A stretch of DNA of 32,000 nt from Nanobdellota archaeon (GCA_038046485.1 JBBSWA010000033.1:9632-41631), one strand, 5' to 3'; numbered from the stretch's first letter, positions 2,162 through 32,000 are shown. Notes: generated by a model not told the origin, from the sequence alone. Translations and numbers: made by a program.

Positions 2162-2179
2162 TAACTATGAACTCGATTA

Positions 2180-2352
2180 TATTTAGCATCTGCAAAATTC
2201 TTGCTTCACTTCCTGTAAGAGCTGCGTTCCCGTATGGAGTGCTCAGAAATGTTTGCATTTCTGGCACGCCAAGAGCTTCGCTCTTGAGCGCAACCCCTCG
2301 CAACGCTCCCACTGTGTTTACTCAACGAATTTTGCCCGGAGGATGCTAAATA
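2180..2352. ncRNA. structured intergenic element, copy A (unclassified family; ncRNA or MITE-like)
   Basis: Closing stems are TATTTAGCATCT/GGATGCTAAATA and GCAAAATTC/GAATTTTGC, separated by a 3'-side bulge. It has core blocks GCTGCGTTCCCGTATGGAG (2221-2239) and GCGCAACCCCTCGCAACGC (2288-2306) and two internal hairpins. It is homologous in architecture to copies B and C. Confidence 0.55.
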
Positions 2353-2358
2353 AATACC

Positions 2359-11160: not shown

Positions 11161-12138
11161 ATGGACTATCCGGCCCTACGAAGACTCATTGAAGAAAAAG
11201 GGCTTCTTAACAAAACCCCTGGGTATTACATCCGTACAAGTGCTATCCTTGTTGCTCTCTTTACCGGCACCTGGATTATCTATTATTACGTCCGCAATTT
11301 TTATATCCAGATTGGTATTGTTTGCCTGCTTGGATTCTTAGGCTTTCAATTTGGACTGCTCGCACACGATGCCGGCCATCGAGCGGTTTCCACCAAAAGG
11401 TGGCTCAATGAAACCATCGGATACCTCTCTTTAACCTTCATTAACGGGATCTCCATCCACCACTGGGAAACCAAACACAATGCTCACCATCGATCTCCTA
11501 ATTTTAACCCGGGAGACCCCGACATTGAACAAGTCTTTGCCTATGACACAACCCAAGCACGTGCACGAAAGGGCCTCCTCAAGTGGATTACTAAACATCA
11601 AATCGCCTTTTTCGTGCCCTTACATGCCTTAAGTGTATTTGACATGACACGCACTTCCTTCCAACATGTTCTTTTGCGATGTCCTTTCAAACGAAAGATG
11701 ATTGAACTCATTGGACTTCTTATGCATCTCGTGCTTTGGATCGGCATTCCAAGCTACTTCATCGGATTTTGGAAGGCCGCTTTGCTCTATGCCATCGGGA
11801 CCCTTGTACGCGGGCTCTATGCCTCCTTGGTCTTTGTACCCAACCACGTCGGAATGCCCCTTCCAAAACCAACAGATAAATTGTCTTATCTTGAAAAACA
11901 AGTCATCACGGCACGCAACCTAACCCCCTCCTTTTTCAAAGACTATATCTTTGGAGGTCTTAACTACCAAATCGAACACCACCTCTTTCCCAATATGTCC
12001 CGTAAATACCTCAAAAAAGCAAAAACAATTATCAAGAACTACTGCTTAACCAATAAGATTCCCTATAAAGAAACTGGATTCTTTACGTGCTACAAAGATG
12101 TCTTCACGCATATGTCCCAAGTGGGGAAAGCGGCTTAA
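11161..12138 (+). CDS. membrane fatty-acid desaturase family protein (front-end type His boxes)
   Basis: Three His boxes (HDAGH, HNAHH, QIEHH) with hydrophobic spans between them. There is no cytochrome b5 domain. Confidence 0.88.
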   Translation: MDYPALRRLIEEKGLLNKTPGYYIRTSAILVALFTGTWIIYYYVRNFYIQIGIVCLLGFLGFQFGLLAHDAGHRAVSTKRWLNETIGYLSLTFINGISIHHWETKHNAHHRSPNFNPGDPDIEQVFAYDTTQARARKGLLKWITKHQIAFFVPLHALSVFDMTRTSFQHVLLRCPFKRKMIELIGLLMHLVLWIGIPSYFIGFWKAALLYAIGTLVRGLYASLVFVPNHVGMPLPKPTDKLSYLEKQVITARNLTPSFFKDYIFGGLNYQIEHHLFPNMSRKYLKKAKTIIKNYCLTNKIPYKETGFFTCYKDVFTHMSQVGKAA

Positions 12139-18947: not shown

Positions 18948-19511
18948 TTGAGCGTGATCAGAATTTCTAAGGAAATTCTGACACTTAAAAAGACCCCATT
19001 AGCGAAAAACGGAGCTTGCGTGAAGGAAATAGCCCCCAGCAAAGACAAAGTAATTGAGCAACTGCGAGAGAGCTACGCTGCGCTTCGAGAACAACACAAC
19101 CTCACCTACGAGGAAATTCTAAACCAACTCCAAAGCGTAGAAACTACCTTGCCCTGCACCATTTTTAGTTCAAGCCTAAGCAGCCTTGAAACCATCACCA
19201 AATATCTCAAAGAAAACCAGCACTTCACCCTCAAAGAAATTGCGCAAAAACTCAATCGCACGTACCGCACGATCTGGGGGGCGTACCATGCCAGCTTGCA
19301 CAAACATCCTTCTGGTTTAACTGCAATTCCCACCCCCTACCACATCCCCCTTTCCCTTTTTTCTGAACGCAAACTAAGCATCCTTGAAACCATCACCCAC
19401 CACCTGCGCTCGACACACCACCTGCGCTACAGTCAAATTGCTAAAATCCTACACCGCGATCCTCGAACTGTTTGGACAACAGAATACAATGCGAAAGGAA
19501 AACTCAAATGA
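18948..19511 (+). CDS. tandem helix-turn-helix protein (two sigma-70-region-4/LuxR-like repeats); non-ATG start
   Basis: Internal repeat LSSLETITKYLKENQHFTLKEIAQKLNRTYRTIWGAYHAS / LSILETITHHLRSTHHLRYSQIAKILHRDPRTVWTTEYNA. The ORF contains no ATG codon. Candidate starts are TTG 18948 or GTG 18954. Confidence 0.62.
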   Translation: MSVIRISKEILTLKKTPLAKNGACVKEIAPSKDKVIEQLRESYAALREQHNLTYEEILNQLQSVETTLPCTIFSSSLSSLETITKYLKENQHFTLKEIAQKLNRTYRTIWGAYHASLHKHPSGLTAIPTPYHIPLSLFSERKLSILETITHHLRSTHHLRYSQIAKILHRDPRTVWTTEYNAKGKLK

Positions 19512-22333
19512 AAAAAAACCTTGATAGTGAAGAGAGAAAACGAGCAGATCTATCGGATCTCCAAGTCCAACGGCTGCGCGGTCTTATTACCAAAATAAAA
19601 ACAGAATATTACTACACCCTACGCCAGACTGAAGCTTTACGACAAAAAGCCAAAGAAGAGCAATGGACCAGCACAGCTTATCAGGAACGGCTATGCAAAG
19701 TATTAAACGGCAAAAAAAACCTGCAAAGTTACCGTGAACACCAAGAAAGTTTGATTCAGGAATACGAACACCAACTTATTGACTCGATCCACTCTGACCT
19801 TACCTCTCAAATCGCACCCTACCAGGTACAGAGTGTTTTCCAACGATTCCAGCAGGGATTCCAAGCAAATACCTATGCTTTGCAACACTACCTGGTTGAG
19901 CAAAAAGTACCCCACATCGCAGGACTCTTCCTACTCATTGTCGTTCTGGGATTTTTTACTTACACTGGATACGTCGCTAAAGATGCCGGCCTTTTCCAGA
20001 CGATTCCCATTGAAACCACCTTTACTGAAAACACGACGATTCCTCTTAACTTAACTGATCTAAGTAGTTTACGTGCGAATGGCCGTCTCATTGGAAAACC
20101 CAGTGTTCATCTCTATTTAGAAGCTGAGAATGGTCATACTCAAAAAACTCAACGCTATGTACTACTGGATGGAGATCGCCTGGGATTGGACATGCTTGCT
20201 ATTACTGGAAATGCTGTTCGACAAAATCAAGGCATTACCTTTGTATTTACGACCGACCAAGAAAAGTATACTATTGAAGAGATGGTTTACGTCGTCCTTG
20301 CCCCTTCGAATAGCTATTACTCGATGTATCTTACCGATTCGGATAACAATACGATCCCCATTGAAAGTCTGAACTTCACCGTGCAAAGACCAGGCGATTA
20401 CCAACTTGTTGGATTACTCACCCAAGATGGAGTAAGTGAACGGCTCGAGACTCGTTTCCACGTTGACGCTGCGCCTGAAACGGAAGGCACTACTCCTATT
20501 TCTTCCAAGAAAGCTACTGAAAAACCCCGAGGACTCTACAGCTTCCAAAACTACTGCCAAGAAAGCTGCCACCTCCCTACTGAATTGGTAGACCCTCGCC
20601 TCGTCATTGAAATCAATGACAACACCCGTGTTACACTCTACAACCTCACGTATAGTCAGCATACCCTTAATGAGCCCCCCAAACAAATCAAGAACATTCC
20701 TGATACTGTGAGTTACTTAGGCTATTCTACCCCTATAGATCTTAACTCTTACTTCCAAGATGAAGATGAACTTATTTATACAACGAGCGCAACTGAGTTA
20801 TCGGCTCACATTGAAAAGGGCATCCTTAATCTGCAAGGAAACAAAACGGGAAGCTACAGCCTCTTTGTCTATGCCAGCGATGGAAACGCAATCATCACCA
20901 GCAAACCCTTTACCATCACGGTAAAAGAACCGCCTATTCAGACTCAGCTCACCCTTAACTGTGAAGGTTGCAAGATGCACCAAACCAAAAGCTACACCGA
21001 GACTTGGGTTCGCCTGAATATTCAGAAAAATACGGACAGGAAAATAGGAAGCTTCTACCTAGACTTACCTGCGGGCTGGCGCGTGACCGACCCCAAAGAT
21101 GGCACGGTGAATGTCATCGATGAAAAACATCCGCGCATCCAATGGACCCTTAAAAAAGAATCGGATGTGATTGAGAAAAACTTCTATGCCCTTGCCCCGA
21201 ATACACAGAAGAAACTGCGACAAAGCTTCAGCCTTACTGTTGCTGACCAGAAACAAGACTATGAAGTGATTACCCACCCGACCCCGATTGACTTACGAGA
21301 AGAGGAAGATGAACTGGACCAGAGACTTGATGTCAACACAAGCATTAACACCACAGGCGATAATTATACTGTCACAGTTCACCTGCCTGATGCTGAAATA
21401 CGGCTTGAAAACGTATACGACCTGGAAGAAATACAGTCCTTGGACTTATTCACCCAACAAAACATCACTCTTAACAATCAGATCTACCTTGCTGCAACCC
21501 CCCTCATCCACTTAAACACATTCCAATTAAACAGCGCCACTTTCATTTTGCCCAAAACAAACCCTGTTAAAGCCCTTGCTGGATGCGAACGATGGAACAC
21601 AGGCACTCAAAGCTGCGAAGCCTGGAACCTTCTTAACACCTCCTTTAATGAAACTCCTACGACCCTTCAATTTACTGTGAAAAAGATTACGGCCTATGCT
21701 GGACTTGGAAAACGCATTGGTGAAATTAAATCGAAATATAAAACATCCAAGATTGGAGCGTACACCGACTACACACTAAACAATGAGACCTATGCCAACT
21801 ACACCCACCCCCTCCTGTATCCAGGCAAGGATAGCTTTAGCGCTGAATTCTGGATCCGCACCAACTCCACTAAAGACCAAACTTTCCTTAGCAGCGAAGA
21901 AGGACAATTCGAAACCTACTGGAAGATTGGAATGGACATGGCCCGGTACGGGATCCTTGCCATACGCCTCAGCAGCCAAGAAGGCGAAACAATCAAAGAA
22001 ATTCCAGACGCCCTTGTTGACGGCCCGCAAAGCTTTGGAACCACTCTACTGAATGATGGACAATGGCATCACCTCCTTGCGGTACGCGACCGCAACCAAA
22101 ACACGATCCTTGGGTATGTAGACGGAAAACTTGACCTCACCTATAATGACACCAGCACAGACATCATGGATACTGCAAGCCACCTCATCCTTGGCAGATC
22201 AAACCCGAACAGCGATGCAGGCTATGATGGCGAGTTTACCCTTATTGACCTCTACGACCATGCCCTTACACCTGAAGAAATGCAGAGCCATTACCAAACT
22301 CAAAAATCACTCTTTACTGAGGTGAAGGCATGA
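19508..22333 (+). CDS. single-pass membrane protein: cytoplasmic helical N-domain, TM, cadherin/Ig-like module, C-terminal LamG (ConA-like lectin) domain
   Basis: The ATG at 19508 overlaps the TGA of the upstream gene (ATGA). TM helix IAGLFLLIVVLGFFTYTGYV. Cadherin-like IDLNSYFQDEDELIYT...SLFVYASDGN. LamG pattern SFSAEFWIR...DGQWHHLLAVRD...LGYVDG...LILGRS...DLYDHALTPEEM. Confidence 0.8.
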   Translation: MKKNLDSEERKRADLSDLQVQRLRGLITKIKTEYYYTLRQTEALRQKAKEEQWTSTAYQERLCKVLNGKKNLQSYREHQESLIQEYEHQLIDSIHSDLTSQIAPYQVQSVFQRFQQGFQANTYALQHYLVEQKVPHIAGLFLLIVVLGFFTYTGYVAKDAGLFQTIPIETTFTENTTIPLNLTDLSSLRANGRLIGKPSVHLYLEAENGHTQKTQRYVLLDGDRLGLDMLAITGNAVRQNQGITFVFTTDQEKYTIEEMVYVVLAPSNSYYSMYLTDSDNNTIPIESLNFTVQRPGDYQLVGLLTQDGVSERLETRFHVDAAPETEGTTPISSKKATEKPRGLYSFQNYCQESCHLPTELVDPRLVIEINDNTRVTLYNLTYSQHTLNEPPKQIKNIPDTVSYLGYSTPIDLNSYFQDEDELIYTTSATELSAHIEKGILNLQGNKTGSYSLFVYASDGNAIITSKPFTITVKEPPIQTQLTLNCEGCKMHQTKSYTETWVRLNIQKNTDRKIGSFYLDLPAGWRVTDPKDGTVNVIDEKHPRIQWTLKKESDVIEKNFYALAPNTQKKLRQSFSLTVADQKQDYEVITHPTPIDLREEEDELDQRLDVNTSINTTGDNYTVTVHLPDAEIRLENVYDLEEIQSLDLFTQQNITLNNQIYLAATPLIHLNTFQLNSATFILPKTNPVKALAGCERWNTGTQSCEAWNLLNTSFNETPTTLQFTVKKITAYAGLGKRIGEIKSKYKTSKIGAYTDYTLNNETYANYTHPLLYPGKDSFSAEFWIRTNSTKDQTFLSSEEGQFETYWKIGMDMARYGILAIRLSSQEGETIKEIPDALVDGPQSFGTTLLNDGQWHHLLAVRDRNQNTILGYVDGKLDLTYNDTSTDIMDTASHLILGRSNPNSDAGYDGEFTLIDLYDHALTPEEMQSHYQTQKSLFTEVKA

Positions 22334-24849
22334 GACAAACTCTTCACCTCACCTTCCTACTAGTACTTCTAGTCATCCTGGTCCTTCTAGGCACTACCCT
22401 TGCAGAAGCTGCCAATGCCACGGTGGTATACAGAAGCAATACGGGCAGCTGCGCTTCCAACGCCTTGAACTGCCCCAAGATTCGAGCCTGGGATAGCACG
22501 GGTGGGGGAAGCTGGGGAAGCGCAGTTGAGTTGCCGACTGCCGGAAGCCCTGTTCGATATGCCGTCATCCGATTCAGCAATGTCAGCAGCAAACGAGCCC
22601 TTGTCACTTCGAGCGACGACGGCTTCCTCGACGGATATGTTTCGTACAACAACACCGCCTGGACGGTCACGAACAACATCGGTCAAGTGTTTGGAAGCAA
22701 CGCCGCCAAAAACGAACGACGATTTGACCTGCAATTCGAAACAGCAAGTGGAGACGCCGTACTAACCTATGCCACCACGAATTCCAGCGGAAACTGCGAC
22801 CTCGCGTACAAGGTATTATTGGCGAATGACACCAGCTGGGCCAACAGCGGCGAAACCTGCATTGACAATGACCAACGCACCCAAGATGACCAATCCAGCT
22901 ACATCAACATGGATCGCAACCCGTCTGATGACAGCTCTGAAATGGTGATGGCCAACCTCAATACCAACCTCTCCGATGTCACCGCACGAGTTTGGGATGG
23001 GGACAACTGGGGCAATCGAATGAATATCACCACCACGAGCTCCATTACCACCACTGAATCGCAAGATGTGGCTTATGCCAAGGATGGAAGCAAAGCGATG
23101 GTCGTTGCAGGGGATGGAGTGAACGGAAACGTCACAACCAAATACTGGAACGGGGCAAGCTGGACTACTACTCCCGGATTTGACATCGATACGGGCGATG
23201 CTCTCGACCTCAAATGGATCCACCTGAAAGCCGACTCGCTCACAGATGACTTGCAAGCCGTCTTTGTAGACAGCGGCAGTGATCTAGGAACAGCCTACTG
23301 GAACGGTGCCACTTGGGCCGTAACGCGCAATATCGATACTGCCGTGGACAGCAATGCGGCGCGACCCTCCGACTTTGCCTGGAACAGCACCAACAGCGGC
23401 GGAAAATTAGTCTTGGACACGGACACTACAGGCACTACACTCAGCCAACGCGGCTGCACCCCTCAATGCACCAGCGGCACCACTACGTTCTCCACGTACG
23501 CTGCCACCGGTGCTTGGCTCAACCTCTACCGCGTGCCTTATGATCCCCTCACAAAAGTAAGCATCCTTGGACTACGCCTCAACAGTGCCTTTGACCTGGG
23601 CAGCTTCGCCCAAGGCATCAATGGAAGCTACTATACATATGGAGACAACACCCTTACAGCCGATACAACCGTAACTACCTTTGAACCCTACAGCCTCGCC
23701 TTCCAAACAGCCTACGGCGGATACTCAGCCCCTTCCACTGTTTACACCCTCAACCAAAGCGCCTTCATCAAACTCGACAACAAAACAACAGATTGGGGGA
23801 ATCTCACCATTTTAACTGACACGGCCGGCGACCAAGCCGCAGGAGGAAGCTCCTTCGATATCACTAACATCAGCCTTGCTAATGGCCCCACACGACTCTT
23901 CGCCTATCTCCAACTCGCAGGAGGAGTGAACTACAGCGCCAACAACTACTACCGCATCTTCGTCACCAATAATGAGGACAATGGCAAACCCACCGCTCCT
24001 GATACAGGTATATTGCTTCCTTTCAAATACACCCACGTCATCCAGCTCAACAACAGCAAATGCCGCGTCTTCAACAACACCGGCGGAAAAGTCGGCAACT
24101 GCCAATATTACAGCAACAACAACACCCTTGAAATTGAAGTCCCCTTCAAATACCTCAACGTGACCAAAGGAGAGAGCTTGAACGTAACGTTTGAGACGGG
24201 CAACTGGACGAATCGCTATGACCTTGCGCCTTACAACAGCGGCTACATCCAGTTCCTCATCAACCAAACCAAGTACGAAACGTACAACTTTACTAACAAC
24301 ACCTACGCTAATTACTCAACAGACGATCCCCACCCATCGAATGGAAGCTTTAGCGCAGAATTATGGGTGCGAACCCCTGTCACTGCCGATCAGATGTTCA
24401 TCAGCAGCGGAGAGTACGACAGCATGGAGTACTACTGGCGCATTGGGATGATCTCTGCCCACACAGGCATCTTATCGATTAAGATGCAAGACGGAATCGA
24501 AGGCGGGGAATGGTGGGAGATTCCAGACCCCGGCGCTGAAAGCGGACAGATCATTGGTAGCAGCAGCTTGAGTGACAATCAATGGCACCACATCGCCTTT
24601 GTAAGGGACCGAGAACAGATGCGAGTCTATGGCTACGTGGACGGTGTGCCTGAGATCAACTTTAGTGACAGCAGTCGAAACGTGACAAGCAATGCCTCCA
24701 ACCTCGTCTTAGGTAAGTCCAACATTTACGCAGACCCTGGATTGGTAGGAAATCTAAGTGTAATCGGCACGTATAACCGAGCCCTCACGACAGAAGAAGT
24801 ACAAGATCACAACCTCACCCAACGAGAAGAAATCGAGGGAGAAACATGA
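22330..24849 (+). CDS. secreted protein: signal peptide, six W-x-G-x-x-W-type repeats (propeller-like), middle beta-sandwich-like module, C-terminal LamG domain
   Basis: ATGA overlap with the upstream gene. Signal peptide LLVLLVILVLLGTTLAEA. Repeats RAWDSTGGGSW, NNTAWTV, NDTSWAN, RVWDGDNWG, KYWNGASW, AYWNGATW at about 52-aa spacing. LamG pattern SFSAELWVR...DNQWHHIAFVRD...YGYVDG...LVLGKS...YNRALTTEEV. Confidence 0.85.
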   Translation: MRQTLHLTFLLVLLVILVLLGTTLAEAANATVVYRSNTGSCASNALNCPKIRAWDSTGGGSWGSAVELPTAGSPVRYAVIRFSNVSSKRALVTSSDDGFLDGYVSYNNTAWTVTNNIGQVFGSNAAKNERRFDLQFETASGDAVLTYATTNSSGNCDLAYKVLLANDTSWANSGETCIDNDQRTQDDQSSYINMDRNPSDDSSEMVMANLNTNLSDVTARVWDGDNWGNRMNITTTSSITTTESQDVAYAKDGSKAMVVAGDGVNGNVTTKYWNGASWTTTPGFDIDTGDALDLKWIHLKADSLTDDLQAVFVDSGSDLGTAYWNGATWAVTRNIDTAVDSNAARPSDFAWNSTNSGGKLVLDTDTTGTTLSQRGCTPQCTSGTTTFSTYAATGAWLNLYRVPYDPLTKVSILGLRLNSAFDLGSFAQGINGSYYTYGDNTLTADTTVTTFEPYSLAFQTAYGGYSAPSTVYTLNQSAFIKLDNKTTDWGNLTILTDTAGDQAAGGSSFDITNISLANGPTRLFAYLQLAGGVNYSANNYYRIFVTNNEDNGKPTAPDTGILLPFKYTHVIQLNNSKCRVFNNTGGKVGNCQYYSNNNTLEIEVPFKYLNVTKGESLNVTFETGNWTNRYDLAPYNSGYIQFLINQTKYETYNFTNNTYANYSTDDPHPSNGSFSAELWVRTPVTADQMFISSGEYDSMEYYWRIGMISAHTGILSIKMQDGIEGGEWWEIPDPGAESGQIIGSSSLSDNQWHHIAFVRDREQMRVYGYVDGVPEINFSDSSRNVTSNASNLVLGKSNIYADPGLVGNLSVIGTYNRALTTEEVQDHNLTQREEIEGET

Positions 24850-27800
24850 GGATGAATCCCCTAAGCCAAAAAGGATTGATTCTCTTTGTACTGGCAGCCC
24901 TCTTCTTCATCCTCTTCTCATCTGTGACAGAGGCTGCCAACGCCACAGCCGTCTACCGAAGCAACACCGGCAGCTGTGCCACGAACGCCACGAACTGCCC
25001 CAAGATCCGCTTCTGGAACAGTACAGGGAACGGTGATTGGAGCAACGAAACTGAACTGCCAACAGCCGGCAGCCCCATCGAATGGACAGTCATACGCTTC
25101 AGCAATGTTTCTTCCAAACGAGTGATTGTCACGCAAAGTGCTGACGGACAACTGGACGGCTATGTTTCATACAACAACACCGACTGGACCGTCACCAACA
25201 ACCTCGACCGAGTTCACAATGGAAATATAGCCGCCAAAACCAGGATGTTCGACGTGCAGTTCGAAACCAGCACCGGCAACGCCCTTTTAGTGTTCGGCAT
25301 TGGCAGTGCCAACGCAGCGTGTGACCTGGGCTACCGCATATTGCTGGCAAACGACACGAGTTGGGCCAACAATGGAACCAATTGTTACAATGACGTGAAC
25401 TTCGCAAACGACATGCAATACACATGGATTCATTCCGACCGCAATTACGCAGACACTAGCAACCAGATCATCGTCAGTGGTTTCTACGCAAACGGCAGTG
25501 ACATTCGGGCCTGGGTGTGGAACAACTCTGTATTCACCAACCCAAGAAACATCACCATGGTCTCCTCCTCGACGACCGGCCAGAATTTTGATGTGAGTTG
25601 CAGCAACACTGCAGGATGCTGGGTAGCTGCAGGAACCGATACAAATGGAAACGTAAGCGCACACAACTGGACAGGCAGCGCGTGGCAACAAACCCTAGGC
25701 TGCGACCCCACCAACGCCGGCCAGGACGTCACTTGGCTCAGTCTCAAAGCCGACCCCCTTACTGATGATCTCCAGATCGCTGTTTCGGACACCGGGACCG
25801 ACCTGGACGCGTGCTACTGGACAGGCAGCGCGTGGACCGCCGTCACCCAAATTGATGCCGACATTGATGGCACTACGACACGACTCTTTGACGTCGCTTG
25901 GAACACGTCAACCAACAGCACCAGTACAGACGCCAAGTTGATATGGGATACCGACACGACCGGCATTGGCCTACGCGTACGAAGCTGCACACCAGCCTGC
26001 AACAGTCAAACATTGGGCTCAGTGAGCAGCTACCCTTCCACTGGAAACTGGTTGTCTTTATACCGCGTAAATCCAGATCCCAATACGAACGTTGCCATGC
26101 TCGGCCTTCGCATGAACATCACCCCCTTTGGCATCGGCAGCTTCGCCATCCTAAATACAACCGGCAATTTCACCCAAGCGGGCACGTACGGCAACAGCAG
26201 CCTGACCAGCAACGCGTTCGTTGGCACTACGGAAGGAAGCTTCCTTGCCTTCCAACAATCAAGCGAAAACCGAAGTATGATCCCCTTTGTCACAGCCGTG
26301 CAAGCCCTTTCCAAAAAACTCCTCAACAACAGCGCCCTCAATGTAACTGCGAATGTGAGCAGCAGCGATGGACACAGTGTCTATACTGCCTATGCTACGG
26401 TCTATGCCCCCAATGGAAGCCTGTTCCAAACCCTTGCCCTCACCAATGGCGTTTCCATCATTTACACCAACGCCACGGAAAAATTCACCACCCTCCCCTT
26501 TGGAAACTGGCTTGTCAACATCTACGCCAATAACACCCGAGGCAGCTTCAACGACACGGAAAACACGACCTTTGCCATTTACCGCGCCCTGAACCAAAGC
26601 AAGACCATCACCATCGACGGAAACTTTGGCGACTGGGATGCCATTGTGAACACCACCGACCCCCTCACGGACAACACAGGCCCCATTGCAGGACAGCTCG
26701 CCGTCCACCGGCCCTACAATGGAAGCACTTCAGGCACAAACACCAATGCCAATGAAACGTATGATAACAGGCTCAATGACACTACGACCAAAATTGACCT
26801 GCTACTCAAAACAATATATAACGTAACTTATCAGCTACCAACTAAAACAACCCAAGGCCGCTTCTACACCACAATAGACTTTGATGGTGGTCCTGGAACC
26901 TCGTTGCGATTACAAGTCTATAATTGGAGCAATGGCACGTACCAGGCCTTCACCCTGTGCGCTAACCCAGTCACTTGTTCCGGAACGACAAGTTCTACAG
27001 ACGTAAGCCTAAACAACGGTTTAATCAACAGCACCGCCAACACCATGATTTTGTTTGACACCACTGGAGGCCCCACTACGGCTGACGTCAGCGACACCTA
27101 CATCAGCGTACCTGGCGGAACGTACGACTACCAAGGCATTACCAAACCCAGCCAGCCCATGAATGCAAGCAATGGCAGCGTCGCTATTGGAACCCCCTGT
27201 GCTTCCAACAGCGACCCTTACTGTGGGACTACACTCCAAGAATTTGCCACCAAAGAATACCACGCCGTTGCCCTTGAAAACAGCACCACCATGACACAGG
27301 TTTCATCCGGCACCAATTATGCCACTATGATCTTCCACTTCAACATCAGCGAAACTCGAGAAAACCCTCAAGAACTCACCCTGCGATGGATCGGAAGCTG
27401 GAGCGGAAACGGCAACCTCCAAGTTGGCTTCTACAACTATGGCAGCAGTGCATGGGATGGAGTATCCATTATAAGCGACAGTGCTTTCAAACCCCGAATC
27501 ATCAATGTCAGCAATGCCACCGACTACATCAATGACAACAAAATGGTCCACGTCCTCCTCCAAGGAGGCACGGGCATCGGCGGCAACCTCATCACCGACT
27601 ACGTCAGCCTATCCACCCTTGCCAAACCCAATCGAGACTTTGACCTCAACCAAGTCAAGCTGACCAACAACAACACCCACTTATTCGCGTACATGAAATT
27701 AAATGGCAGCGTCAACTTCAACAATGCCAGCCGATACTACCGCCTGTTTGTCTCCACCACGGAAAGCGGCCCCAACTCCACCACGCCCGAGACTTTCAAG

Positions 27801-30800
27801 CAACTGCCCTTCAACTACAGCTACCGCATCCAACTCAACAACTCGGCCTGCACCATTTTCAACAACAGCAACGTCACCCTCTCCGGCTGCACGTTTGCGA
27901 ATGATTCCGATGAGATTGAGCTTCAAGCACCCCTCTCCACACTTGATCTAACTACGGACAAAAACATCAACGTCACCTTTGAAACCAGCAGCGCCACCGA
28001 GCAATACGACACAGCACCTGACGCACAAAGCTTCCTTAATGTTTACCTGAATAATACTGTTGAAACACCTGCCCCCTGCGACAAACCCCTCACTGGAGAC
28101 TGGAATGTGAATAGCACACAAGTCTGCAACAACCAACTCATCAACCTCACCGGAAACTTAACGATTAACGGAACTGGCAATCTCACCTTCCACAACGTCA
28201 CGCTGATCATCAATGTCACGTACAATGGCACTTATGGCATCAATGTCAGCGGCACTTTCTTTATCAATCAAAGCAACATCACAGGCATCAACCAAACCAC
28301 CTGGCTCAGCAACCAATATACTTTCCGCACCTTCTCAGGAAGTAGCCTCACCCTTATCAACAGCAACGTCAGCCGTACTGGATGGACGAATTCCTTTGGG
28401 CGCCGAGGACTCGAAGCCAATGGAACCCTACAAAACTTCAGCGGAAACACCCTCGCCAGCAACTTCATTGGCCTCACGATCTACAGCAGCGGCAATAATA
28501 TCACCCAGAACACCATCCATAACGACCAAACAGGCGGAATGCTCTACGGCATCTACATACTTGGCGTAAGCGGCTACGCGCCCACCGCAAACCGCATCAC
28601 CAGCAACACCATACGAACCAATGGAACCAGCACCAAAGGCATACGACTCGAAACAAACGCCAACCAAACCAACATCACCGGAAACACAATAAACACCTGG
28701 GGAACCAGCAGCAGCAACATTGGAATCCTACTCACCACCAACACCGGAAACAACACCATCACCGCAAACACCATCAACACCAACGGAACCAACAACAACT
28801 ACGGCATCCAACTCACCACCAACACCCAAAACAACACCATCCAAGGAAACACCATATGGACCGACGGAAGCAGCAGCAGCAATCACGGAATCCTCCTATC
28901 CGGAACCGCCACCACCCTACTCCAAGGAAACCTCATCCAACACAACACCATCAACACCCAAGGAACCAGCACCGACATCGGCATCTACCTAATCACCAAC
29001 GTAAACCAAACCACAGTATACAACAACACCATCACCACCAAAGGAACCAACGACAACTACGGCATCAACTTTCTCATACAAGTAGGTAATAATACTATCA
29101 CTGGAAATACGATCAACACTGCTGGAACGAGTACCAACTACGGAATCTACCTAACCACCGACACAATCAACAATGCCATCACCGGAAACACCATCTGGAC
29201 AGACGGAACCATCAACAACAACTTCGGAATCTACCTACTAGGAACAGCAACCACACTAACCGACGGAAACATCATCCAACACAACACCATCCACACCAAC
29301 GGAACCGCTAGCAACTACGGCATCTACCTCAGCACCTACGTAAACAAAACTACCCTTCAAAATAACACCATCACCACACAAGGAAGAACAGGAGGAAACA
29401 ACTACGGAATCTACCTAACCACCGACACAATCAACAACAGCATCCAAGGAAACACTATAAACACCAATGGAACCGATACCGACTACGGCATCTACCTGAG
29501 TGACTCTGCTGACGGAAATGTCATTCAGGACGCTTACGTCAACACCACCCAATCCCCTGCCGTTGTCATCGAATCCAACCATAGCGTACTTTACAATGTA
29601 ACCGCCATCAGCAACAGCAGCAACGGCATCCAACTCAGCCTCAGCGCCTACAACAACACCATCAATTCCTCCTATGGATACAGCGAAACTGGAATCGGGA
29701 TCTACCTCTTACAAGACAGCCACAACAACAACATCAGCCATAGCACGGGCAACAGCACCCGCGGCGCAGGAGTACGCACGGGCAGCTACAACAACACCTT
29801 CATCAACCTAACCGCATTGACACGCTGGGGACAAGCCCTCTACTTCGGCTTTGCCAATGCCACAACTGTCATCGACCTTACTGCCCGAGCACCTGTCGGA
29901 ACAGGAGTCTTCCTTGCATACAGCAACAACATCACGATTCTTGGTGGAATGATCAACGCGAGCAACGGATTCAACTTCACCGACGCCAGCAATGACAACA
30001 ATTTCATTGACGTGAACCTGACCAATACCACTGCCGCACTGGATGTGTTCTTCAAAAGCACTGCAGCCGCAAACAGCGTGAACACCACCTTCCTCAATGT
30101 CACCTTTAGAAAGACAAACATTACTTACAGTTGTACGGGAGTCTGCACGTTTAATGTAAAATGGTGGCTGAATGTCAAAGTCAACACTTCTGACCAAACC
30201 AGCTTACAAAACGCCAACGTGACGATACGAGATGTAAATATAGCCCAACGGTTCACAGAACTCACCGACACCAACGGCCAGATCGTCATTAAAAACATCA
30301 CCGAGTACACCCAGACTGCGCTCAGCACCACACCTTTAACCAATTACACCATGAACGCCACCTCCCCCGACAGTGATATCATAGAACTGGAAACACCAAC
30401 CAGCCCGCACCGAAGCTTCAACCTCACCCAAAGCACTTACCTCTTTGTCACTTTCAGAGACACCTGTCAAGAACCCCTCACCGGCGAATGGAATGTGAAC
30501 AGCACCCAAATTTGCAGGAACAAAATCATCAACCTCACCGGCAACTTAACGATTAACGGAACAGGCAACCTCACCTTCCACAACGTCACCTTGATCATGA
30601 ACACCACATACAACGGCAGCAGCATGATCAACATCTCCGGCTACGCCACCATCAACCAAAGCAACATCACCGGAATCAACCAAACCGCCTCTCTCAGCTG
30701 GCAATACGCCTTCATCACTCGCGTCAAAAACGCCGGACCCGACCTCCCCAACAGTATAACCATCATCAACAGCCACATCTCAAGAACCGGATGGAACGAC

Positions 30801-32000
30801 GCCCTTGGACAGCGAGGACTCGAACTGAACAATACCCCTACCAACTTCAGTGGCAACAACATCACCAACAGTTTCATTGGACTAACCATTTATTCCAGCA
30901 ATACCTACATCCAAAACAGCAACATCACCGGAAATAAGTACGCCATCTACAGCACCCGCACAGGCGACAGCGTTACCAACCTCACCGTCCTAAATAATAA
31001 CATCGAAGCCTACAGCGCCTATGGAATATATTTTAACACCAACGTCAACAACAGCCTCCTACAAAGAAACACCATCACCACGTCTGGCAATACAGCCAAC
31101 AACTACGGGATCTACCTCTTCACTCAAGTAGGCAACAACACCATCACTGGAAACACCATCAACACCAACGGAACCGGCAGCAACTATGGCATCTACCTAC
31201 AAAACACCGCCAACAACAACAATCTCACCGGAAACACCATCAACACCGAAGGAGGAACCGCTGCCAGCAACAACTATGGAATCTATCTGACCGGAACAGC
31301 CACTACGCCTGTCATCAGCAACCTGATCCAACACAATGTCATCAAAACAAATGGAACCGCCACCAACTACGGAGTCTACCTCACTGGAAATGCCAACAAC
31401 ACGCTCATTCAAAACAACACCATCACCACACTCGGAAGAAACGGAGCCAACAACTACGGCATCTACCTGCAAAGTTACGTAGGCAACAACACCCTCACCC
31501 AAAACACCATCAACACCAACGGAACCACCGATAACTATGGCATCTACCTATCCACGATATCCACCAACAACAATCTCACCGGAAACACCATCAACACCGA
31601 AGGAAGCACCGCCACCAGCAACAGCTACGGGATCTACCTACGTGGAATCGACCAAGTTGGATTTGCGATCAGCCCCTCCATCAACAACCTCATCCAACAC
31701 AATGCCATCAAAACAAACGGAACCGACACCAACTATGGCATCTACTTCTTTACCAGTGTGAACCACACCACCACCACGAACAACACCATCACCACACTTG
31801 GAAGAAACGGAGCCAACAACCACGGCATCATCCTAAGCACTAATACAGGAAACAACACCATCGCCCAAAACACCATCAACACCAACGGAACCACGGATAA
31901 CTACGGAATCTACCTAACTACCAACACCATCAACAACAACCTAAGCGGGAACACCATCAACACCGAAGGAAGCACCGCTACCAGCAACAACTACGGCATC
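24846..32000 (+). CDS. giant surface protein, 5' part only (more than 2385 codons, open to the window edge): signal peptide, propeller-like module, beta-sandwich-like modules, two tandem parallel-beta-helix (PbH1/NosD-like) arrays
   Basis: The ATG at 24846 overlaps the TGA at 24847-24849. I read this frame codon by codon to 32000 without a stop. The N-terminus (EAANATAVYRSNTGSCATNATNCPKIRFW...) is paralogous to the 22330 gene. It has dozens of coils of the type NTI.TNGT..NYGIYL. It is not in the supplied ORF track. Confidence 0.9.
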   Translation, partial: MRMNPLSQKGLILFVLAALFFILFSSVTEAANATAVYRSNTGSCATNATNCPKIRFWNSTGNGDWSNETELPTAGSPIEWTVIRFSNVSSKRVIVTQSADGQLDGYVSYNNTDWTVTNNLDRVHNGNIAAKTRMFDVQFETSTGNALLVFGIGSANAACDLGYRILLANDTSWANNGTNCYNDVNFANDMQYTWIHSDRNYADTSNQIIVSGFYANGSDIRAWVWNNSVFTNPRNITMVSSSTTGQNFDVSCSNTAGCWVAAGTDTNGNVSAHNWTGSAWQQTLGCDPTNAGQDVTWLSLKADPLTDDLQIAVSDTGTDLDACYWTGSAWTAVTQIDADIDGTTTRLFDVAWNTSTNSTSTDAKLIWDTDTTGIGLRVRSCTPACNSQTLGSVSSYPSTGNWLSLYRVNPDPNTNVAMLGLRMNITPFGIGSFAILNTTGNFTQAGTYGNSSLTSNAFVGTTEGSFLAFQQSSENRSMIPFVTAVQALSKKLLNNSALNVTANVSSSDGHSVYTAYATVYAPNGSLFQTLALTNGVSIIYTNATEKFTTLPFGNWLVNIYANNTRGSFNDTENTTFAIYRALNQSKTITIDGNFGDWDAIVNTTDPLTDNTGPIAGQLAVHRPYNGSTSGTNTNANETYDNRLNDTTTKIDLLLKTIYNVTYQLPTKTTQGRFYTTIDFDGGPGTSLRLQVYNWSNGTYQAFTLCANPVTCSGTTSSTDVSLNNGLINSTANTMILFDTTGGPTTADVSDTYISVPGGTYDYQGITKPSQPMNASNGSVAIGTPCASNSDPYCGTTLQEFATKEYHAVALENSTTMTQVSSGTNYATMIFHFNISETRENPQELTLRWIGSWSGNGNLQVGFYNYGSSAWDGVSIISDSAFKPRIINVSNATDYINDNKMVHVLLQGGTGIGGNLITDYVSLSTLAKPNRDFDLNQVKLTNNNTHLFAYMKLNGSVNFNNASRYYRLFVSTTESGPNSTTPETFKQLPFNYSYRIQLNNSACTIFNNSNVTLSGCTFANDSDEIELQAPLSTLDLTTDKNINVTFETSSATEQYDTAPDAQSFLNVYLNNTVETPAPCDKPLTGDWNVNSTQVCNNQLINLTGNLTINGTGNLTFHNVTLIINVTYNGTYGINVSGTFFINQSNITGINQTTWLSNQYTFRTFSGSSLTLINSNVSRTGWTNSFGRRGLEANGTLQNFSGNTLASNFIGLTIYSSGNNITQNTIHNDQTGGMLYGIYILGVSGYAPTANRITSNTIRTNGTSTKGIRLETNANQTNITGNTINTWGTSSSNIGILLTTNTGNNTITANTINTNGTNNNYGIQLTTNTQNNTIQGNTIWTDGSSSSNHGILLSGTATTLLQGNLIQHNTINTQGTSTDIGIYLITNVNQTTVYNNTITTKGTNDNYGINFLIQVGNNTITGNTINTAGTSTNYGIYLTTDTINNAITGNTIWTDGTINNNFGIYLLGTATTLTDGNIIQHNTIHTNGTASNYGIYLSTYVNKTTLQNNTITTQGRTGGNNYGIYLTTDTINNSIQGNTINTNGTDTDYGIYLSDSADGNVIQDAYVNTTQSPAVVIESNHSVLYNVTAISNSSNGIQLSLSAYNNTINSSYGYSETGIGIYLLQDSHNNNISHSTGNSTRGAGVRTGSYNNTFINLTALTRWGQALYFGFANATTVIDLTARAPVGTGVFLAYSNNITILGGMINASNGFNFTDASNDNNFIDVNLTNTTAALDVFFKSTAAANSVNTTFLNVTFRKTNITYSCTGVCTFNVKWWLNVKVNTSDQTSLQNANVTIRDVNIAQRFTELTDTNGQIVIKNITEYTQTALSTTPLTNYTMNATSPDSDIIELETPTSPHRSFNLTQSTYLFVTFRDTCQEPLTGEWNVNSTQICRNKIINLTGNLTINGTGNLTFHNVTLIMNTTYNGSSMINISGYATINQSNITGINQTASLSWQYAFITRVKNAGPDLPNSITIINSHISRTGWNDALGQRGLELNNTPTNFSGNNITNSFIGLTIYSSNTYIQNSNITGNKYAIYSTRTGDSVTNLTVLNNNIEAYSAYGIYFNTNVNNSLLQRNTITTSGNTANNYGIYLFTQVGNNTITGNTINTNGTGSNYGIYLQNTANNNNLTGNTINTEGGTAASNNYGIYLTGTATTPVISNLIQHNVIKTNGTATNYGVYLTGNANNTLIQNNTITTLGRNGANNYGIYLQSYVGNNTLTQNTINTNGTTDNYGIYLSTISTNNNLTGNTINTEGSTATSNSYGIYLRGIDQVGFAISPSINNLIQHNAIKTNGTDTNYGIYFFTSVNHTTTTNNTITTLGRNGANNHGIILSTNTGNNTIAQNTINTNGTTDNYGIYLTTNTINNNLSGNTINTEGSTATSNNYGI

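What the first reader, a model, noticed from the sequence alone, without database searches (positions are those of the whole stretch)
24846..32000. A giant ORF is missing from the ORF track
The supplied track shows only short off-frame and antisense ORFs from 24.9 to 31.8 kb. Yet the frame starting at ATG 24846 stays open for all 7155 nt (2385 codons) to the end of the window. It ends exactly on a codon boundary, and I saw no stop when translating it by eye. The translation is coherent throughout. It begins with a signal peptide (LILFVLAALFFILFSSVTEA). Next comes a roughly 330-aa module closely paralogous to the preceding gene. It then has IDGNFGDWD...LFAYMKLNG...YYRLFV beta-sandwich-like modules and long arrays of NYGIYL beta-helix coils. 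The track apparently needs an in-window stop codon, so the largest gene here is invisible in it.
Basis: seen in the sequence. Interest (0 to 1): 0.8.

Follow-up and report, generated by a model that had tools for sequence, protein, structure and literature searches.

The report
Giant archaeal surface protein gene
The "missing" ORF is a real 2892-residue gene, cut off by the window end, for a secreted sugar-coated surface fibre of a tiny groundwater (DPANN) archaeon; it is already in GenBank under a generic name, and it seems to be held on the cell by a small membrane protein encoded right after it.

Summary
Observation confirmed. The frame from ATG 24846 has 0 stops in 2385 codons; the other five frames have 49-215 stops and shuffles reach at most 385 open codons. 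It is absent from the track only because ORFs that run off the window end are not listed.

Near-identical public contigs (Hainich groundwater) show the gene ends 1524 nt past the window, giving 2892 aa. It is GenBank MEK6963535.1, [quoted passage not shown].

Architecture:
- signal peptide;
- ~440-aa seven-blade-like beta-propeller with no Pfam model (1744 representative clusters);
- ~600 aa of unassigned beta-rich modules;
- two duplicated beta-helix shafts (NYGIYL coils, 27-36 aa each);
- a conserved ~240-aa C-terminal unit.

It carries 184 N-X-S/T sequons against 104 expected and has no membrane anchor of its own.

It is gene 4 of a five-gene, 4-nt-overlapping operon: HTH regulator, two LamG proteins, the giant, then a 501-aa membrane-anchored Ig-like protein. 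In 9 of 10 related DPANN loci, a large, otherwise different protein ending in all or part of the same C-terminal unit lies just upstream of that anchor's homologue.

Best reading: an adhesin-like fibre displayed in trans on a conserved anchor. The gene is an ordinary member of a known kind. The cassette is the more interesting part, and the docking itself is inferred.

The parts
18948..19511 (+). Gene 1 of the operon: small cytoplasmic HTH protein (185-187 aa), the putative regulator.
   Evidence: Pfam HTH_23 7.5e-8, Sigma70_r4_2 2e-7 and HTH_11. Homologues sit at the head of related cassettes in L008, L009, L012 and L011. No hydrophobic segment.
19508..22333 (+). Gene 2: 941-aa membrane protein. 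It has an N-terminal cytoplasmic part of ~128 aa, one TM helix (aa 129-147), an extracellular part and a C-terminal Laminin_G_3 domain.
   Evidence: Pfam Laminin_G_3 2e-16. Hydropathy scan. 65% identical orthologue at the same position in L008. 4-nt overlap with genes 1 and 3.
22330..24849 (+). Gene 3: 839-aa secreted paralogue (GenBank MEK6963534.1). Order of modules: signal peptide, propeller, ~170-aa beta module, Laminin_G_3.
   Evidence: 49% identity to giant aa 26-470 and 39% to aa 932-1071. Laminin_G_3 6e-16. Propeller profile 9e-224 (this protein is itself a member of profile A2). No TM helix after the leader.
24846..32000 (+). Gene 4: the giant ORF. The window holds its first 2385 of 2892 codons; the stop lies at the equivalent of window position 33524.
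   Evidence: 0 stops. Shuffle control. Full length from L001/L004/L005. GenBank MEK6963535.1.
24846..24935 (+). Signal peptide (aa 1-30, MRMNPLSQKGLILFVLAALFFILFSSVTEA|A).
   Evidence: Hydropathy peak of 2.55 at aa 10-28. The -3/-1 small-residue pattern is conserved in homologues. No signal-peptide predictor was available, so cleavage is inferred.
24936..26255 (+). N-terminal ~440-aa beta-propeller with about seven blades of 50-58 aa, each with a W-x-G-S-x-W-type motif. Proposed distal binding head.
   Evidence: No Pfam or NCBIfam hit. AlphaFold pTM 0.85, pLDDT 75, all-beta with ~30 strands. Best PDB folds are the 7-bladed PLL/PHL and 6-bladed AAL fucose lectins (E 2e-9, TM 0.5-0.63, 12-14% identity). 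The family has 1744 representative clusters.
26256..28067 (+). Unassigned beta-rich middle region (aa 471-1074). It holds an Ig-like-looking module (471-589), then a module that is contiguous (~170 aa) in the paralogue but here appears split by an insert of ~325 aa (ITIDGNFGDWD ... insert ... FDLNQVKLTNNNTHLFAYMKLNG...YYRLFV).
   Evidence: Alignment with the paralogue and orthologue shows the insert. No Pfam, NCBIfam or PDB sequence hit. The AlphaFold model is unreliable (pLDDT 40), so the fold is not established.
28068..30140 (+). Beta-helix shaft 1 (aa ~1075-1765): a cap (1075-1200), a regular array of NYGIYL coils (superrepeat ~113 aa, aa 1208-1620), then irregular coils.
   Evidence: Pfam Beta_helix at aa ~1189-1363 and NosD at 1246-1396. 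Self-comparison. Coil list with 27-31 aa spacing. DNA tandem repeats at L001:16344-16512.
30141..30452 (+). ~100-aa linker module between the two shafts (aa ~1766-1869).
   Evidence: Conserved in orthologue P0074 (1.2e-23). No family hit. Fold unknown.
30453..32000 (+). Beta-helix shaft 2 (aa ~1870 onward), a duplicate of shaft 1. Its cap is 66% identical to the first cap, and its superrepeat is ~122 aa (366 nt, 2.6 DNA copies at 78% match). It continues past the window to aa ~2520. After it come a ~135-aa module (aa ~2520-2655) and the conserved C-terminal unit (aa ~2651-2892), and then the 501-aa TM anchor gene (equivalent of window 33521-35026).
   Evidence: Self-comparison. Tandem Repeats Finder. 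Pfam Beta_helix at aa 1991-2159. C-terminal unit and anchor from L001/L004.

Best explanation
The ORF is the 5' 82% of an intact 8.7-kb gene of a DPANN (Nanoarchaeota/Woesearchaeota-type) archaeon.

Product. It encodes a 2892-aa (~310 kDa before glycans, acidic) Sec-exported surface protein that is probably heavily N-glycosylated. From N to C terminus it has: a lectin-like beta-propeller head, beta-rich spacer modules, two tandemly duplicated right-handed beta-helix shafts, and a conserved Fn3-like plus beta C-terminal unit. The shafts have about 24 coils each. At the standard 4.8 A rise per coil that is roughly 11-12 nm per shaft (inferred).

Anchoring. The protein has no membrane anchor of its own. 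Proposed mechanism: after export, the C-terminal unit docks non-covalently onto the conserved, sequon-poor, Ig-like, C-terminally membrane-anchored 501-aa protein encoded by the next, translationally coupled gene. The propeller head is then held tens of nanometres from the cell, where it binds glycans or glycoproteins on a host or partner cell or on a surface. The HTH protein at the head of the operon would control expression.

Shown: the ORF, its full length, its domain content, its sequon excess, the operon, and the conserved pairing of C-terminal unit and anchor across loci.
Inferred: signal-peptide cleavage, glycosylation, physical docking, orientation, and the adhesion function.
For: Gene reality:
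- 0 stops against 49-215 in the other frames, and at most 385 open codons in shuffles.
- Identical 2892-aa product on 5 contigs, including two separate sample assemblies, and in GenBank.
- Orthologue P0074 (3353 aa) matches nearly every module, ct1 being the exception.

Export and surface location:
- Hydrophobic leader with a conserved AxA-type site.
- 184 sequons against 103.8 +/- 8.1 in shuffles, z 9.9; cytoplasmic neighbours have 0.3-0.7 per 100 aa against 6.4 here.
- Asn 15.2% and Thr 15.9%, the composition reported for methanogen adhesin-like proteins (PMC11532034).

Modules:
- Beta_helix and NosD hits above their cut-offs, two duplicated arrays and 22 regular coils.
- Propeller model with pTM 0.85, nearest to fucose lectins.

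Operon:
- Five co-directional genes with 4-nt overlaps.
- The same five genes in diverged locus L008.

Anchoring in trans:
- No TM helix after the leader in the giant; the 501-aa neighbour has a signal peptide plus a TM helix at aa 367-385.
- Homologues of that neighbour in L009, L010, L011, L012, L014, L015 and L016 each lie 0-2 genes downstream of a large protein. Those proteins differ in their N-terminal parts (FG-GAP-like, beta-helix, unknown) but end in all or part of the same C-terminal unit.
- Matches independent of the profile: L013_821 6e-39, L013_190 4e-28, L014_235 8e-7, L015 4e-106, L016 2e-84.

Conservation gradient against L008, consistent with a conserved base and a fast-evolving tip: anchor 75%, C-terminal region 62%, shafts ~51%, propeller 46%.

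Other:
- Anchors are sequon-depleted (13 against 27.9 expected, 0 of 2000 shuffles as low) while cargo proteins are 1.7-3.6-fold enriched.
- 6 of 9 anchor family members give sub-threshold hits to WxLIP_HBD. That is the TM-anchored Ig-like partner proposed, from structure prediction, to hold WxL proteins on Gram-positive surfaces.
Against: - No direct evidence for docking. Both structure-prediction slots were used, so no complex could be modelled.
- The WxLIP hits are below Pfam's cut-off (20.6 against 28.9 bits), and the C-terminal module gives no hit to the WxL domain or to any family.
- The leader's hydrophobic core is long (~19 residues). It could stay as an N-terminal signal anchor, as proposed for many methanogen adhesin-like proteins, which would reverse the orientation.
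- Part of the Asn excess in the shafts may be structural (Asn ladders) and not glycosylation.
- The lectin resemblance is at fold level only (TM ~0.5-0.6, 12-14% identity), and beta-propellers match each other easily.
- No expression data. No oligosaccharyltransferase gene could be checked on this contig.
- L013 has a C-terminal-module protein but no anchor in the 8 kb that could be read.
Confidence: 0.6

Rival explanations
1. It is the main S-layer or cell-envelope protein of the organism. On this reading it is a large unanchored glycoprotein held by a smaller membrane-anchored stalk protein encoded next to it, as SlaA and SlaB are in Sulfolobales (own knowledge), and it is not an adhesin.
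For: - Secreted, sequon-rich, with no anchor of its own, followed by a TM-anchored Ig-like partner.
- Strong preference for C-ending codons compared with housekeeping genes in the same window (GC3 0.665 against 0.477). This could reflect high expression.
- S-layer proteins are also poorly conserved between lineages.
Against: - The cassette carries very different cargo in related genomes: 307 to 3353 aa, with FG-GAP-like, beta-helix or unknown N-terminal parts.
- The cassette usually starts with its own HTH regulator.
- One contig (L011) holds an anchor cassette and a second HTH-led large-protein gene.
- Long regular beta-helix shafts suggest a fibre and not a lattice former.
- No S-layer family was hit in Pfam or NCBIfam.
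Confidence: 0.15
2. It is a secreted polysaccharide-degrading enzyme, such as a pectate-lyase-like or tailspike-like depolymerase. It would use its beta-helix groove to cut host cell-wall or biofilm glycans, as proposed for the pectin-lyase-like proteins of Nanobdella aerobiophila.
For: - The right-handed beta-helix is the classic fold of such enzymes; Beta_helix and NosD hits.
- The irregular coils at aa ~1550-1765 and the caps could form a groove.
- Hypothesis in the literature for DPANN pectin-lyase-like proteins (bioRxiv 10.1101/2023.10.27.564410).
- L009 has a Pel9A-like beta-helix protein in the cassette.
Against: - Only generic repeat models hit. No lyase or glycoside hydrolase family was matched.
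- Most of the helix is a near-perfect repeat (coils 40-75% identical to one another), which is typical of structural shafts and leaves little room for an active-site groove.
- No catalytic residues could be identified.
Confidence: 0.12
3. It is anchored by its own uncleaved N-terminal helix, like many methanogen adhesin-like proteins. The propeller would then sit next to the membrane and the conserved C-terminal unit would be the distal tip, which binds the 501-aa protein of a neighbouring cell or acts as a cap.
For: - The hydrophobic core of the leader is ~19 residues, which is TM length.
- Methanogen adhesin-like proteins are mostly predicted to be N-terminally anchored (PMC11532034).
Against: - Small residues at -3/-1 directly before the conserved domain start are kept across diverged homologues: TEA, AEA, VDA, AYA.
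- The propeller is the least conserved part and the C-terminal unit one of the most conserved, which fits a variable tip and a conserved base.
- Small secreted proteins made only of the C-terminal module exist (L013_190, L014_235), which fits a docking module better than a tip.
Confidence: 0.1
4. The long open frame is an artefact: a mis-assembly of repeats, or a chance open frame in T-poor DNA.
For: - The region is T-poor (17% T) and repetitive, with a 366-nt period.
- Two public assemblies show a split or a fused gene model nearby.
Against: - Shuffles with the same dinucleotide content never exceed 385 open codons, and the other five frames are full of stops.
- The same 2892-aa product appears on 5 contigs, including two separate sample assemblies.
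- The repeats are only ~78% identical at DNA level, so they can be assembled.
- The split and fused models are caused by 10-N scaffold gaps.
- A diverged orthologue keeps the architecture.
Confidence: 0.01

Closest known systems
[quoted passage not shown]
   Same: Archaeal, very long, Asn/Thr-rich and repetitive, with right-handed beta-helix domains combined with beta-sandwich modules. They are predicted to be extracellular and to reach other cells.
   Different: ALPs usually carry their own TM anchor and repeats of the 'archaeal Big' domain. This protein has a cleavable-looking leader, no other TM helix, no Big-domain hit, an N-terminal propeller and a conserved C-terminal unit paired with a separate anchor gene.
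[quoted passage not shown]
   Same: DPANN origin, signal peptide, parallel beta-helix, dozens of predicted N-glycosylation sites, and a proposed role in contact with the host.
   Different: Those proteins are 908-1320 aa with 36-52 sites. This one is 2892 aa with 184 sequons, two duplicated shafts, a propeller head and an operon partner. No sequence relationship was tested.
Giant 'SPEARE' surface proteins of nanohaloarchaea (PMC10266531)
   Same: A giant Sec-exported surface protein of a DPANN archaeon, thought to mediate interaction with the host. LamG-domain surface proteins occur in the same genomes.
   Different: SPEARE-type proteins are 8880-9409 aa and membrane-bound. They are built mainly of Ig/fibronectin-like repeats with a VirB4/TraG-like ATPase domain and a neighbouring secretion ATPase. 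None of these features is present here.
WxL gene clusters of Gram-positive bacteria: small WxL protein, large protein with a C-terminal WxL domain, and WxLIP (two Ig-like domains plus a TM helix) (PMC10599100)
   Same: The gene-cluster logic is the same. Large proteins have variable N-terminal binding parts and a shared C-terminal module. Small proteins made only of that module occur (L013_190, L014_235). One conserved protein has a signal peptide, Ig-like domains and a C-terminal TM helix. 6 of 9 anchors give weak WxLIP_HBD hits.
   Different: There is no WxL domain hit, and the WxLIP hits are below threshold. The host has no peptidoglycan for a WxL-type domain to bind. The resemblance may be convergence.
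Seven-bladed PLL/PHL lectins of Photorhabdus and six-bladed AAL-type fucose lectins
   Same: These are the best fold matches of the N-terminal propeller model (E 2e-9 to 1e-7, probability 1.0).
   Different: Only 10-14% identity and TM 0.36-0.63. The query is ~100 aa larger. Binding-site residues were not compared, and no sequence family link was found.
NosD (periplasmic beta-helix protein of nitrous-oxide reductase maturation)
   Same: The Pfam NosD model matches the coil arrays above its cut-off (39 bits against 23.6).
   Different: The match reflects generic beta-helix coils. There are no nos genes nearby, and the size and context differ.

Membership tests
Right-handed parallel beta-helix repeat proteins (Pfam Beta_helix PF13229, pectin-lyase fold) | Significant match to the family model above the curated cut-off | tested here: met
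   PF13229 at 2.5e-19, 69.9 bits against a cut-off of 25.9, in 5 stretches. Both shafts hit separately (2e-15 and 3.3e-18).
Right-handed parallel beta-helix repeat proteins (Pfam Beta_helix PF13229, pectin-lyase fold) | Regular coils of about 22-30 residues with conserved Gly, Asn and Ile/Leu positions | tested here: met
   22 NYGIYL-type coils spaced 27-31 aa (one of 36, plus one 59-aa interval that spans two coils) in two arrays, with four-coil superrepeats of 113-122 aa.
Right-handed parallel beta-helix repeat proteins (Pfam Beta_helix PF13229, pectin-lyase fold) | Three-dimensional beta-helix | not tested
   Both structure-prediction slots went to the regions without any family hit.
NosD (nitrous-oxide reductase accessory protein) | Encoded with nosZ/nosF/nosY; a single protein of ~400 aa | tested here: not met
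   No nos genes in the window or in 10 kb downstream. The protein is 2892 aa.
   No hit in any tile of the giant protein at E up to 1. Both upstream genes hit at about 1e-16.
Methanogen adhesin-like proteins (ALPs) | Asn/Thr over-representation, length far above average, and repetitive motifs | tested here: met
   Asn 15.2%, Thr 15.9%, 2892 aa, 113-122-aa superrepeats. Criteria from PMC11532034.
Methanogen adhesin-like proteins (ALPs) | Archaeal Big-domain repeats and a TM anchor of its own | tested here: not met
   No Big-type Pfam hit above noise. The only hydrophobic segment is the leader, which has a conserved cleavage-type site.
Nanohaloarchaeal giant (SPEARE-type) proteins | VirB4/TraG-like ATPase domain, long Ig/Fn3 arrays, and a neighbouring secretion ATPase | tested here: not met
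   No ATPase domain in the protein or in the operon. Criteria from PMC10266531.
WxL clusters (WxL domain plus WxLIP) | C-terminal WxL domain on the large and small proteins | tested here: not met
   The C-terminal module gave no Pfam or NCBIfam hit at E up to 10.
WxL clusters (WxL domain plus WxLIP) | Partner with a signal peptide, two Ig-like domains (PGBD, HBD) and a C-terminal TM helix | tested here: inconclusive
   The architecture fits. WxLIP_HBD is hit by 6 of 9 family members (best 1.9e-5) and WxLIP_PGBD by 2 of 9 (0.09), all below the cut-off. A profile hit to CARDB-like 3idu/2kl6 has E 0.006.
WxL clusters (WxL domain plus WxLIP) | Genes clustered: proteins sharing the C-terminal module next to one anchor | tested here: met
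   9 of 10 loci have a C-terminal-unit protein 0-2 genes upstream of the anchor. Module-only small proteins occur in L013 and L014.
PLL/AAL-type fucose-binding propeller lectins | Beta-propeller fold similar to solved members | tested here: met
   Foldseek E 2e-9, probability 1.0, TM 0.50/0.63 to 6rgg_B. The model has pTM 0.85.
PLL/AAL-type fucose-binding propeller lectins | Sequence relationship and conserved sugar-binding residues | not tested
   Identity is only 10-14% in the structural alignments. Binding-site residues were not compared, and sugar binding cannot be tested with these tools.

The most novel reading that the evidence does not exclude
The giant ORF is the cargo of a surface-display cassette for which five literature searches found no description; it is present in several DPANN (Nanoarchaeota/Woesearchaeota-type) MAGs. 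Its parts are an HTH regulator, one or more large and freely exchangeable secreted proteins that all end in the same Fn3-like plus beta C-terminal unit, sometimes a small protein made only of that unit, and a conserved, glycosylation-poor, Ig-like membrane anchor distantly similar to WxLIP. This would be an archaeal counterpart of Gram-positive WxL clusters. It could be a general way for these tiny symbionts to mount and swap host-binding proteins. The ~440-aa propeller, which has no Pfam model and is also found in giant Nitrososphaera proteins, would be one of the exchangeable binding heads.
Probability: 0.4. Interest if true: 0.65.

Novelty: new member of a known kind. Interest (0 to 1): 0.4.

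Why it matters
DPANN archaea are thought to live attached to other cells, but how they attach is mostly unknown. The gene alone adds one more large, glycosylated beta-helix surface protein to a class already noted in methanogens, Nanobdella and nanohaloarchaea, and GenBank already lists it under a generic name.

Three further results are useful.
- About half of the protein belongs to families with no curated model. One is a propeller family with 1744 representative clusters.
- The protein's C-terminal unit and the neighbouring membrane protein recur together next to very different large proteins in other DPANN genomes. This gives a testable hypothesis for how unanchored giant proteins are held on the cell, and a search handle (the C-terminal unit and the anchor) for finding the surface repertoire of these organisms.
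- For the scan itself, ORF tracks that require an in-window stop will hide the largest genes at window edges.

Tried and rejected
- Word-index homology searches performed poorly on this Asn/Thr-rich protein. The propeller query returned only 6 hits and not even itself, and the middle region returned nothing. The exhaustive profile search was needed.
The single-protein scan found only two Micrarchaeota relatives at 34% identity.
- AlphaFold on aa 470-1075 with 4 sequences gave pLDDT 40 and pTM 0.27. The model was not used for fold search, so the fold of this region stays open.
- PDB sequence and profile searches of the middle and C-terminal regions gave only weak Fn3 hits (E ~0.05) for the first half of the C-terminal unit, and nothing else.
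- Apparent variants in public assemblies suggested a frameshift or a fusion: the giant gene split at 586 aa in L003, and the HTH gene fused to the 941-aa gene as '1116 aa' in L001/L005. Both are 10-N scaffold gaps.
- A C-terminal TM or sorting signal was looked for and not found. The protein ends ...ATVLFVARNS with no hydrophobic stretch.
- NosD function, LamG in the giant, and SPEARE-type ATPase domains were rejected (see the membership tests).
- WxL and WxLIP sequences could not be taken from the paper's supplement for a direct profile comparison, because the alignments are not held as text.
- No tRNA genes in the window.
- Five literature searches returned nothing describing this cassette. 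That is absence in the searched library only.


Full report
OBSERVATION.
Translating window 24846-32000 on the + strand gives 2385 codons with no stop, and the stretch ends on a codon boundary. The other five frames of the same stretch have 49-215 stops. In 200 dinucleotide-preserving shuffles the longest open run averaged 201 codons and never exceeded 385. Chance and the T-poor composition (17% T) therefore do not explain the frame.

The mechanical ORF list shows only ORFs of 211 aa or less in this interval. Its documentation states that ORFs running off an end of the source are not listed, so the 'missing' gene is a property of the track. The ATG at 24846 overlaps the stop of the preceding gene (ATGA) and follows a GAGGGAG motif.

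FULL LENGTH AND SOURCE.
The complete upstream paralogue (22330-24849) was found on public contigs from Hainich groundwater well H51. L001 matches window 19542-32000 with 2 mismatches, which cause one amino-acid difference in the giant protein (T2240S). There the frame runs on for 1524 nt to a stop, giving 2892 aa.

The same product is called on five contigs from the 0.1 and 0.2 um fractions. It is in GenBank as MEK6963535.1, 'MAG: right-handed parallel beta-helix repeat-containing protein [Nanoarchaeota archaeon]', and the upstream gene is MEK6963534.1, 'LamG domain-containing protein'. The rest of the window is archaeal: PAN-type AAA ATPase, FEN1, L37ae, Pcc1, prefoldin and Trm5/TYW2.

Two public assemblies seemed to carry a split giant gene (586 aa) and an HTH-941 fusion (1116 aa). 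Both are produced by 10-N scaffold gaps.

ANATOMY OF THE 2892-aa PROTEIN.
1. aa 1-30. A leader with a 19-residue hydrophobic core and T-E-A|A. Small residues at -3/-1 are kept in diverged homologues. Cleavage is inferred.
2. aa 31-470. This module is 49% identical to the upstream gene and has no Pfam or NCBIfam model. With a six-sequence alignment AlphaFold gives an all-beta model (pTM 0.85, pLDDT 75, about 30 strands). Its best solved neighbours are the seven-bladed PLL/PHL and six-bladed AAL fucose lectins (E 2e-9, TM 0.5-0.63, 12-14% identity). Tryptophan motifs recur every 50-58 aa, which fits about seven blades.
   An exhaustive profile search found 1744 representative clusters at E <= 0.001 and 345 at E <= 1e-30. 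The proteins reach 7926 aa, with up to 20 matched stretches per protein. Named members include giant hypothetical proteins of Nitrososphaera, such as NTE_01437, and Micrarchaeia.
3. aa 471-1074. No hit in Pfam, NCBIfam or PDB sequences. Alignment with the paralogue shows a ~170-aa module that is contiguous there. In the giant protein and in its orthologue the module appears interrupted by a ~325-aa insert.
4. aa ~1075-1765 and ~1870-2520. These are two duplicated beta-helix shafts. Their caps are 66% identical, and each has an array of four-coil superrepeats of 113-122 aa. There are 22 NYGIYL-type coils, mostly spaced 27-31 aa. Pfam Beta_helix (2.5e-19) and NosD (7.7e-10) both pass their cut-offs. 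At DNA level the second array has a 366-nt period with 78% matches.
5. aa ~2520-2655. A module shared with P0028.
6. aa ~2651-2892. A C-terminal unit made of an Fn3-like half and a terminal half. The Fn3-like half has the invariant motif F-x-N-R-T-P-x-F-N-W and weak Fn3 and Ig_Rha78A_N hits. The terminal half ends VPxxEPPG...F-x-A and has no family hit.

There is no hydrophobic segment after the leader.

Composition. Thr is 15.9% and Asn 15.2%, with a pI of about 4.9 and a mass of about 310 kDa. There are 184 N-X(not P)-S/T sequons against 103.8 +/- 8.1 in residue shuffles (z 9.9). Outside the regular arrays the figures are 136 against 58. Cytoplasmic proteins of the window have 0.3-0.7 sequons per 100 aa against 6.4 here.

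OPERON.
On the longer contigs five co-directional genes overlap by 4 nt each:
- an HTH protein of 185 aa;
- a 941-aa protein with one TM helix at aa 129-147 and a C-terminal Laminin_G_3 domain;
- the 839-aa secreted propeller-LamG paralogue;
- the giant protein;
- a 501-aa protein with a signal peptide, an ectodomain of ~340 aa, a TM helix at aa 367-385 and a cytoplasmic tail.

A convergent PIN/RHH pair follows. The same five genes in the same order and with the same overlaps occur in a diverged locus from another sample (L008). Identities there are: anchor 75%, LamG protein 65%, paralogue 62.5%, and for the giant 46% (propeller), ~51% (middle and shafts) and 62% (C-terminal region).

THE CASSETTE.
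Homologues of the 501-aa protein come from Woesearchaeota, Nanoarchaeia and Nanoarchaeota MAGs. In every locus that could be read they lie directly after large proteins.

Those large proteins differ from the giant in their N-terminal parts: FG-GAP-like in L009, unknown in L010, L012 and L016, and beta-helix in L015 and L014. They nevertheless end in all or part of the same C-terminal unit. L014's own giant shows only a weak trace of it (E 0.086); there the module sits on a separate 235-aa protein.

Matches that were not part of the profile:
- L013_821, 6e-39;
- L015 partial giant, 4e-106;
- L016_307, 2e-84;
- two small secreted proteins made of the terminal half only: L013_190 (4e-28) and L014_235 (8e-7).

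In total, 9 of 10 loci have a C-terminal-unit protein 0-2 genes upstream of an anchor homologue. L013 is the exception. The HTH protein has homologues at the head of the cassettes in L008, L009 and L012, and elsewhere on L011.

The anchors are depleted in sequons (pooled 13 against 27.9 expected; none of 2000 shuffles was as low). All cargo proteins are 1.7-3.6-fold enriched.

Six of nine anchors give sub-threshold hits to WxLIP_HBD and two to WxLIP_PGBD. A profile search of PDB gives a CARDB-like domain at E 0.006.

MECHANISM.
Shown: an intact, conserved, exported-looking, sequon-rich modular protein with a propeller, two beta-helix shafts and a conserved C-terminal unit; a translationally coupled operon; and recurrent pairing of that unit with a conserved TM-anchored Ig-like protein.

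Inferred: the leader is cleaved, the sequons are glycosylated, and the C-terminal unit docks on the anchor. The two shafts would then act as spacers. Each has about 24 coils, which at the standard 4.8 A rise per coil is about 11-12 nm. The propeller, the fastest-evolving part, would be the distal glycan- or protein-binding head used for attachment to a host or a surface.

Overall I put this reading at about 0.6. The gene and its surface location are near certain. I put docking in trans at roughly 0.5-0.6 and the adhesion role at about 0.5.

Rivals (details in the Rival explanations section):
- a SlaA/SlaB-like S-layer pair;
- a depolymerase;
- N-terminal anchoring with reversed orientation;
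- an assembly or chance artefact, which is effectively excluded.

COMPARISON WITH WHAT IS KNOWN.
The protein fits the class of archaeal adhesin-like surface proteins: Asn/Thr-rich, very long, repetitive and containing a beta-helix (PMC11532034). It also resembles the pectin-lyase-like, many-sequon extracellular proteins of the DPANN archaeon Nanobdella.

It is not a SPEARE-type nanohaloarchaeal giant, because it lacks the ATPase and the Ig arrays. It is not a NosD orthologue.

The cluster logic resembles Gram-positive WxL clusters: a small WxL-only protein, a large protein with a C-terminal WxL domain, and WxLIP with two Ig-like domains and a TM helix (PMC10599100). The WxL domain itself is not detected, and the WxLIP hits are below threshold. 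This is therefore 'works like', not 'is a member of'.

NOVELTY AND SCORE.
The reported finding is correct but ordinary. It is a real gene cut by the window edge, already deposited and generically named, and a new member of a known kind.

The added value lies in three things: the large propeller family with no curated model, the conserved C-terminal unit, and its pairing with a dedicated anchor. Five literature searches found no description of this pairing.

Interest is 0.4. If the display-cassette reading holds (probability about 0.4), it would deserve about 0.65.

Noticed in passing
window 12660-14888, 22330-24849 and 24846-32000, compared with ten housekeeping genes elsewhere in the window: Codon usage splits sharply inside one contig. 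The giant gene has GC3 0.665 and prefers C-ending codons (AAC 76%, TAC 80%, GAC 76%, ATC 81%). Ten housekeeping genes have GC3 0.477 and prefer T-ending codons (AAC 36%, TAC 37%, GAC 38%). The propeller-LamG paralogue and the VWA-DUF4215 protein side with the giant. Whether this reflects expression-linked selection or foreign origin was not resolved.
   Followed up: partly
L004:18676-20181 and its homologues in L008-L012, L014: The membrane-anchored partner proteins are depleted in N-X-S/T sequons (pooled 13 against 27.9 expected; 0 in the 501-aa protein), while every neighbouring cargo protein is 1.7-3.6-fold enriched.
   Followed up: yes
L001:7203-7212 (window ~19503-19541) and L003:8287-8296 (window ~26590): Runs of 10 N (scaffold gaps) in public assemblies create false gene models: a 1116-aa 'fusion' of the HTH and 941-aa genes, and a giant gene 'truncated' at 586 aa.
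   Followed up: yes
window 12660-14888 (+): A 742-aa protein with a von Willebrand A domain and five cysteine-rich DUF4215 repeats (1.2e-34), GenBank MEK6963524.1. It may be another extracellular protein and has raised GC (0.49-0.51).
   Followed up: no
window 11161-12138 (+): A fatty-acid desaturase family gene (6e-40) on an archaeal contig. This is unexpected for an organism with isoprenoid lipids and may be one of the bacterial-type genes often seen in DPANN genomes.
   Followed up: no
window 734-3678 (+) and 8149-9887 (-): Two tandem gene pairs: TldD/PmbA-type metallopeptidases (475 and 439 aa) and EamA-family transporters (288 and 291 aa).
   Followed up: no
L004:20207-20854 (-) and L015:3431-4095 (-): A PIN_2/RHH_12 toxin-antitoxin-like pair lies convergent and directly after the anchor gene in two related loci.
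   Followed up: no
P0057 (6719 aa), P0059 (7926 aa), P0014 (3221 aa, Nitrososphaera evergladensis NTE_01437): The propeller family with no curated model also occurs in giant proteins outside DPANN. Two proteins of 6719-7926 aa show about 20 matched stretches each. All named members are annotated as hypothetical.
   Followed up: partly
L004:21048-22358 (-): A 436-aa protein with a lipoprotein-like N-terminus (…LSGC), duplicated Cys motifs and a long Pro/Thr/Ser-rich linker. No Pfam hit and no sequons.
   Followed up: no
L012:11286-12923 and L009:9300-10889: Some cassettes carry extra parts after the anchor: a second anchor-like protein with an N-terminal extension (545 aa, 1.6e-138) in L012, and a 529-aa Pel9A-like beta-helix protein in L009.
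   Followed up: partly
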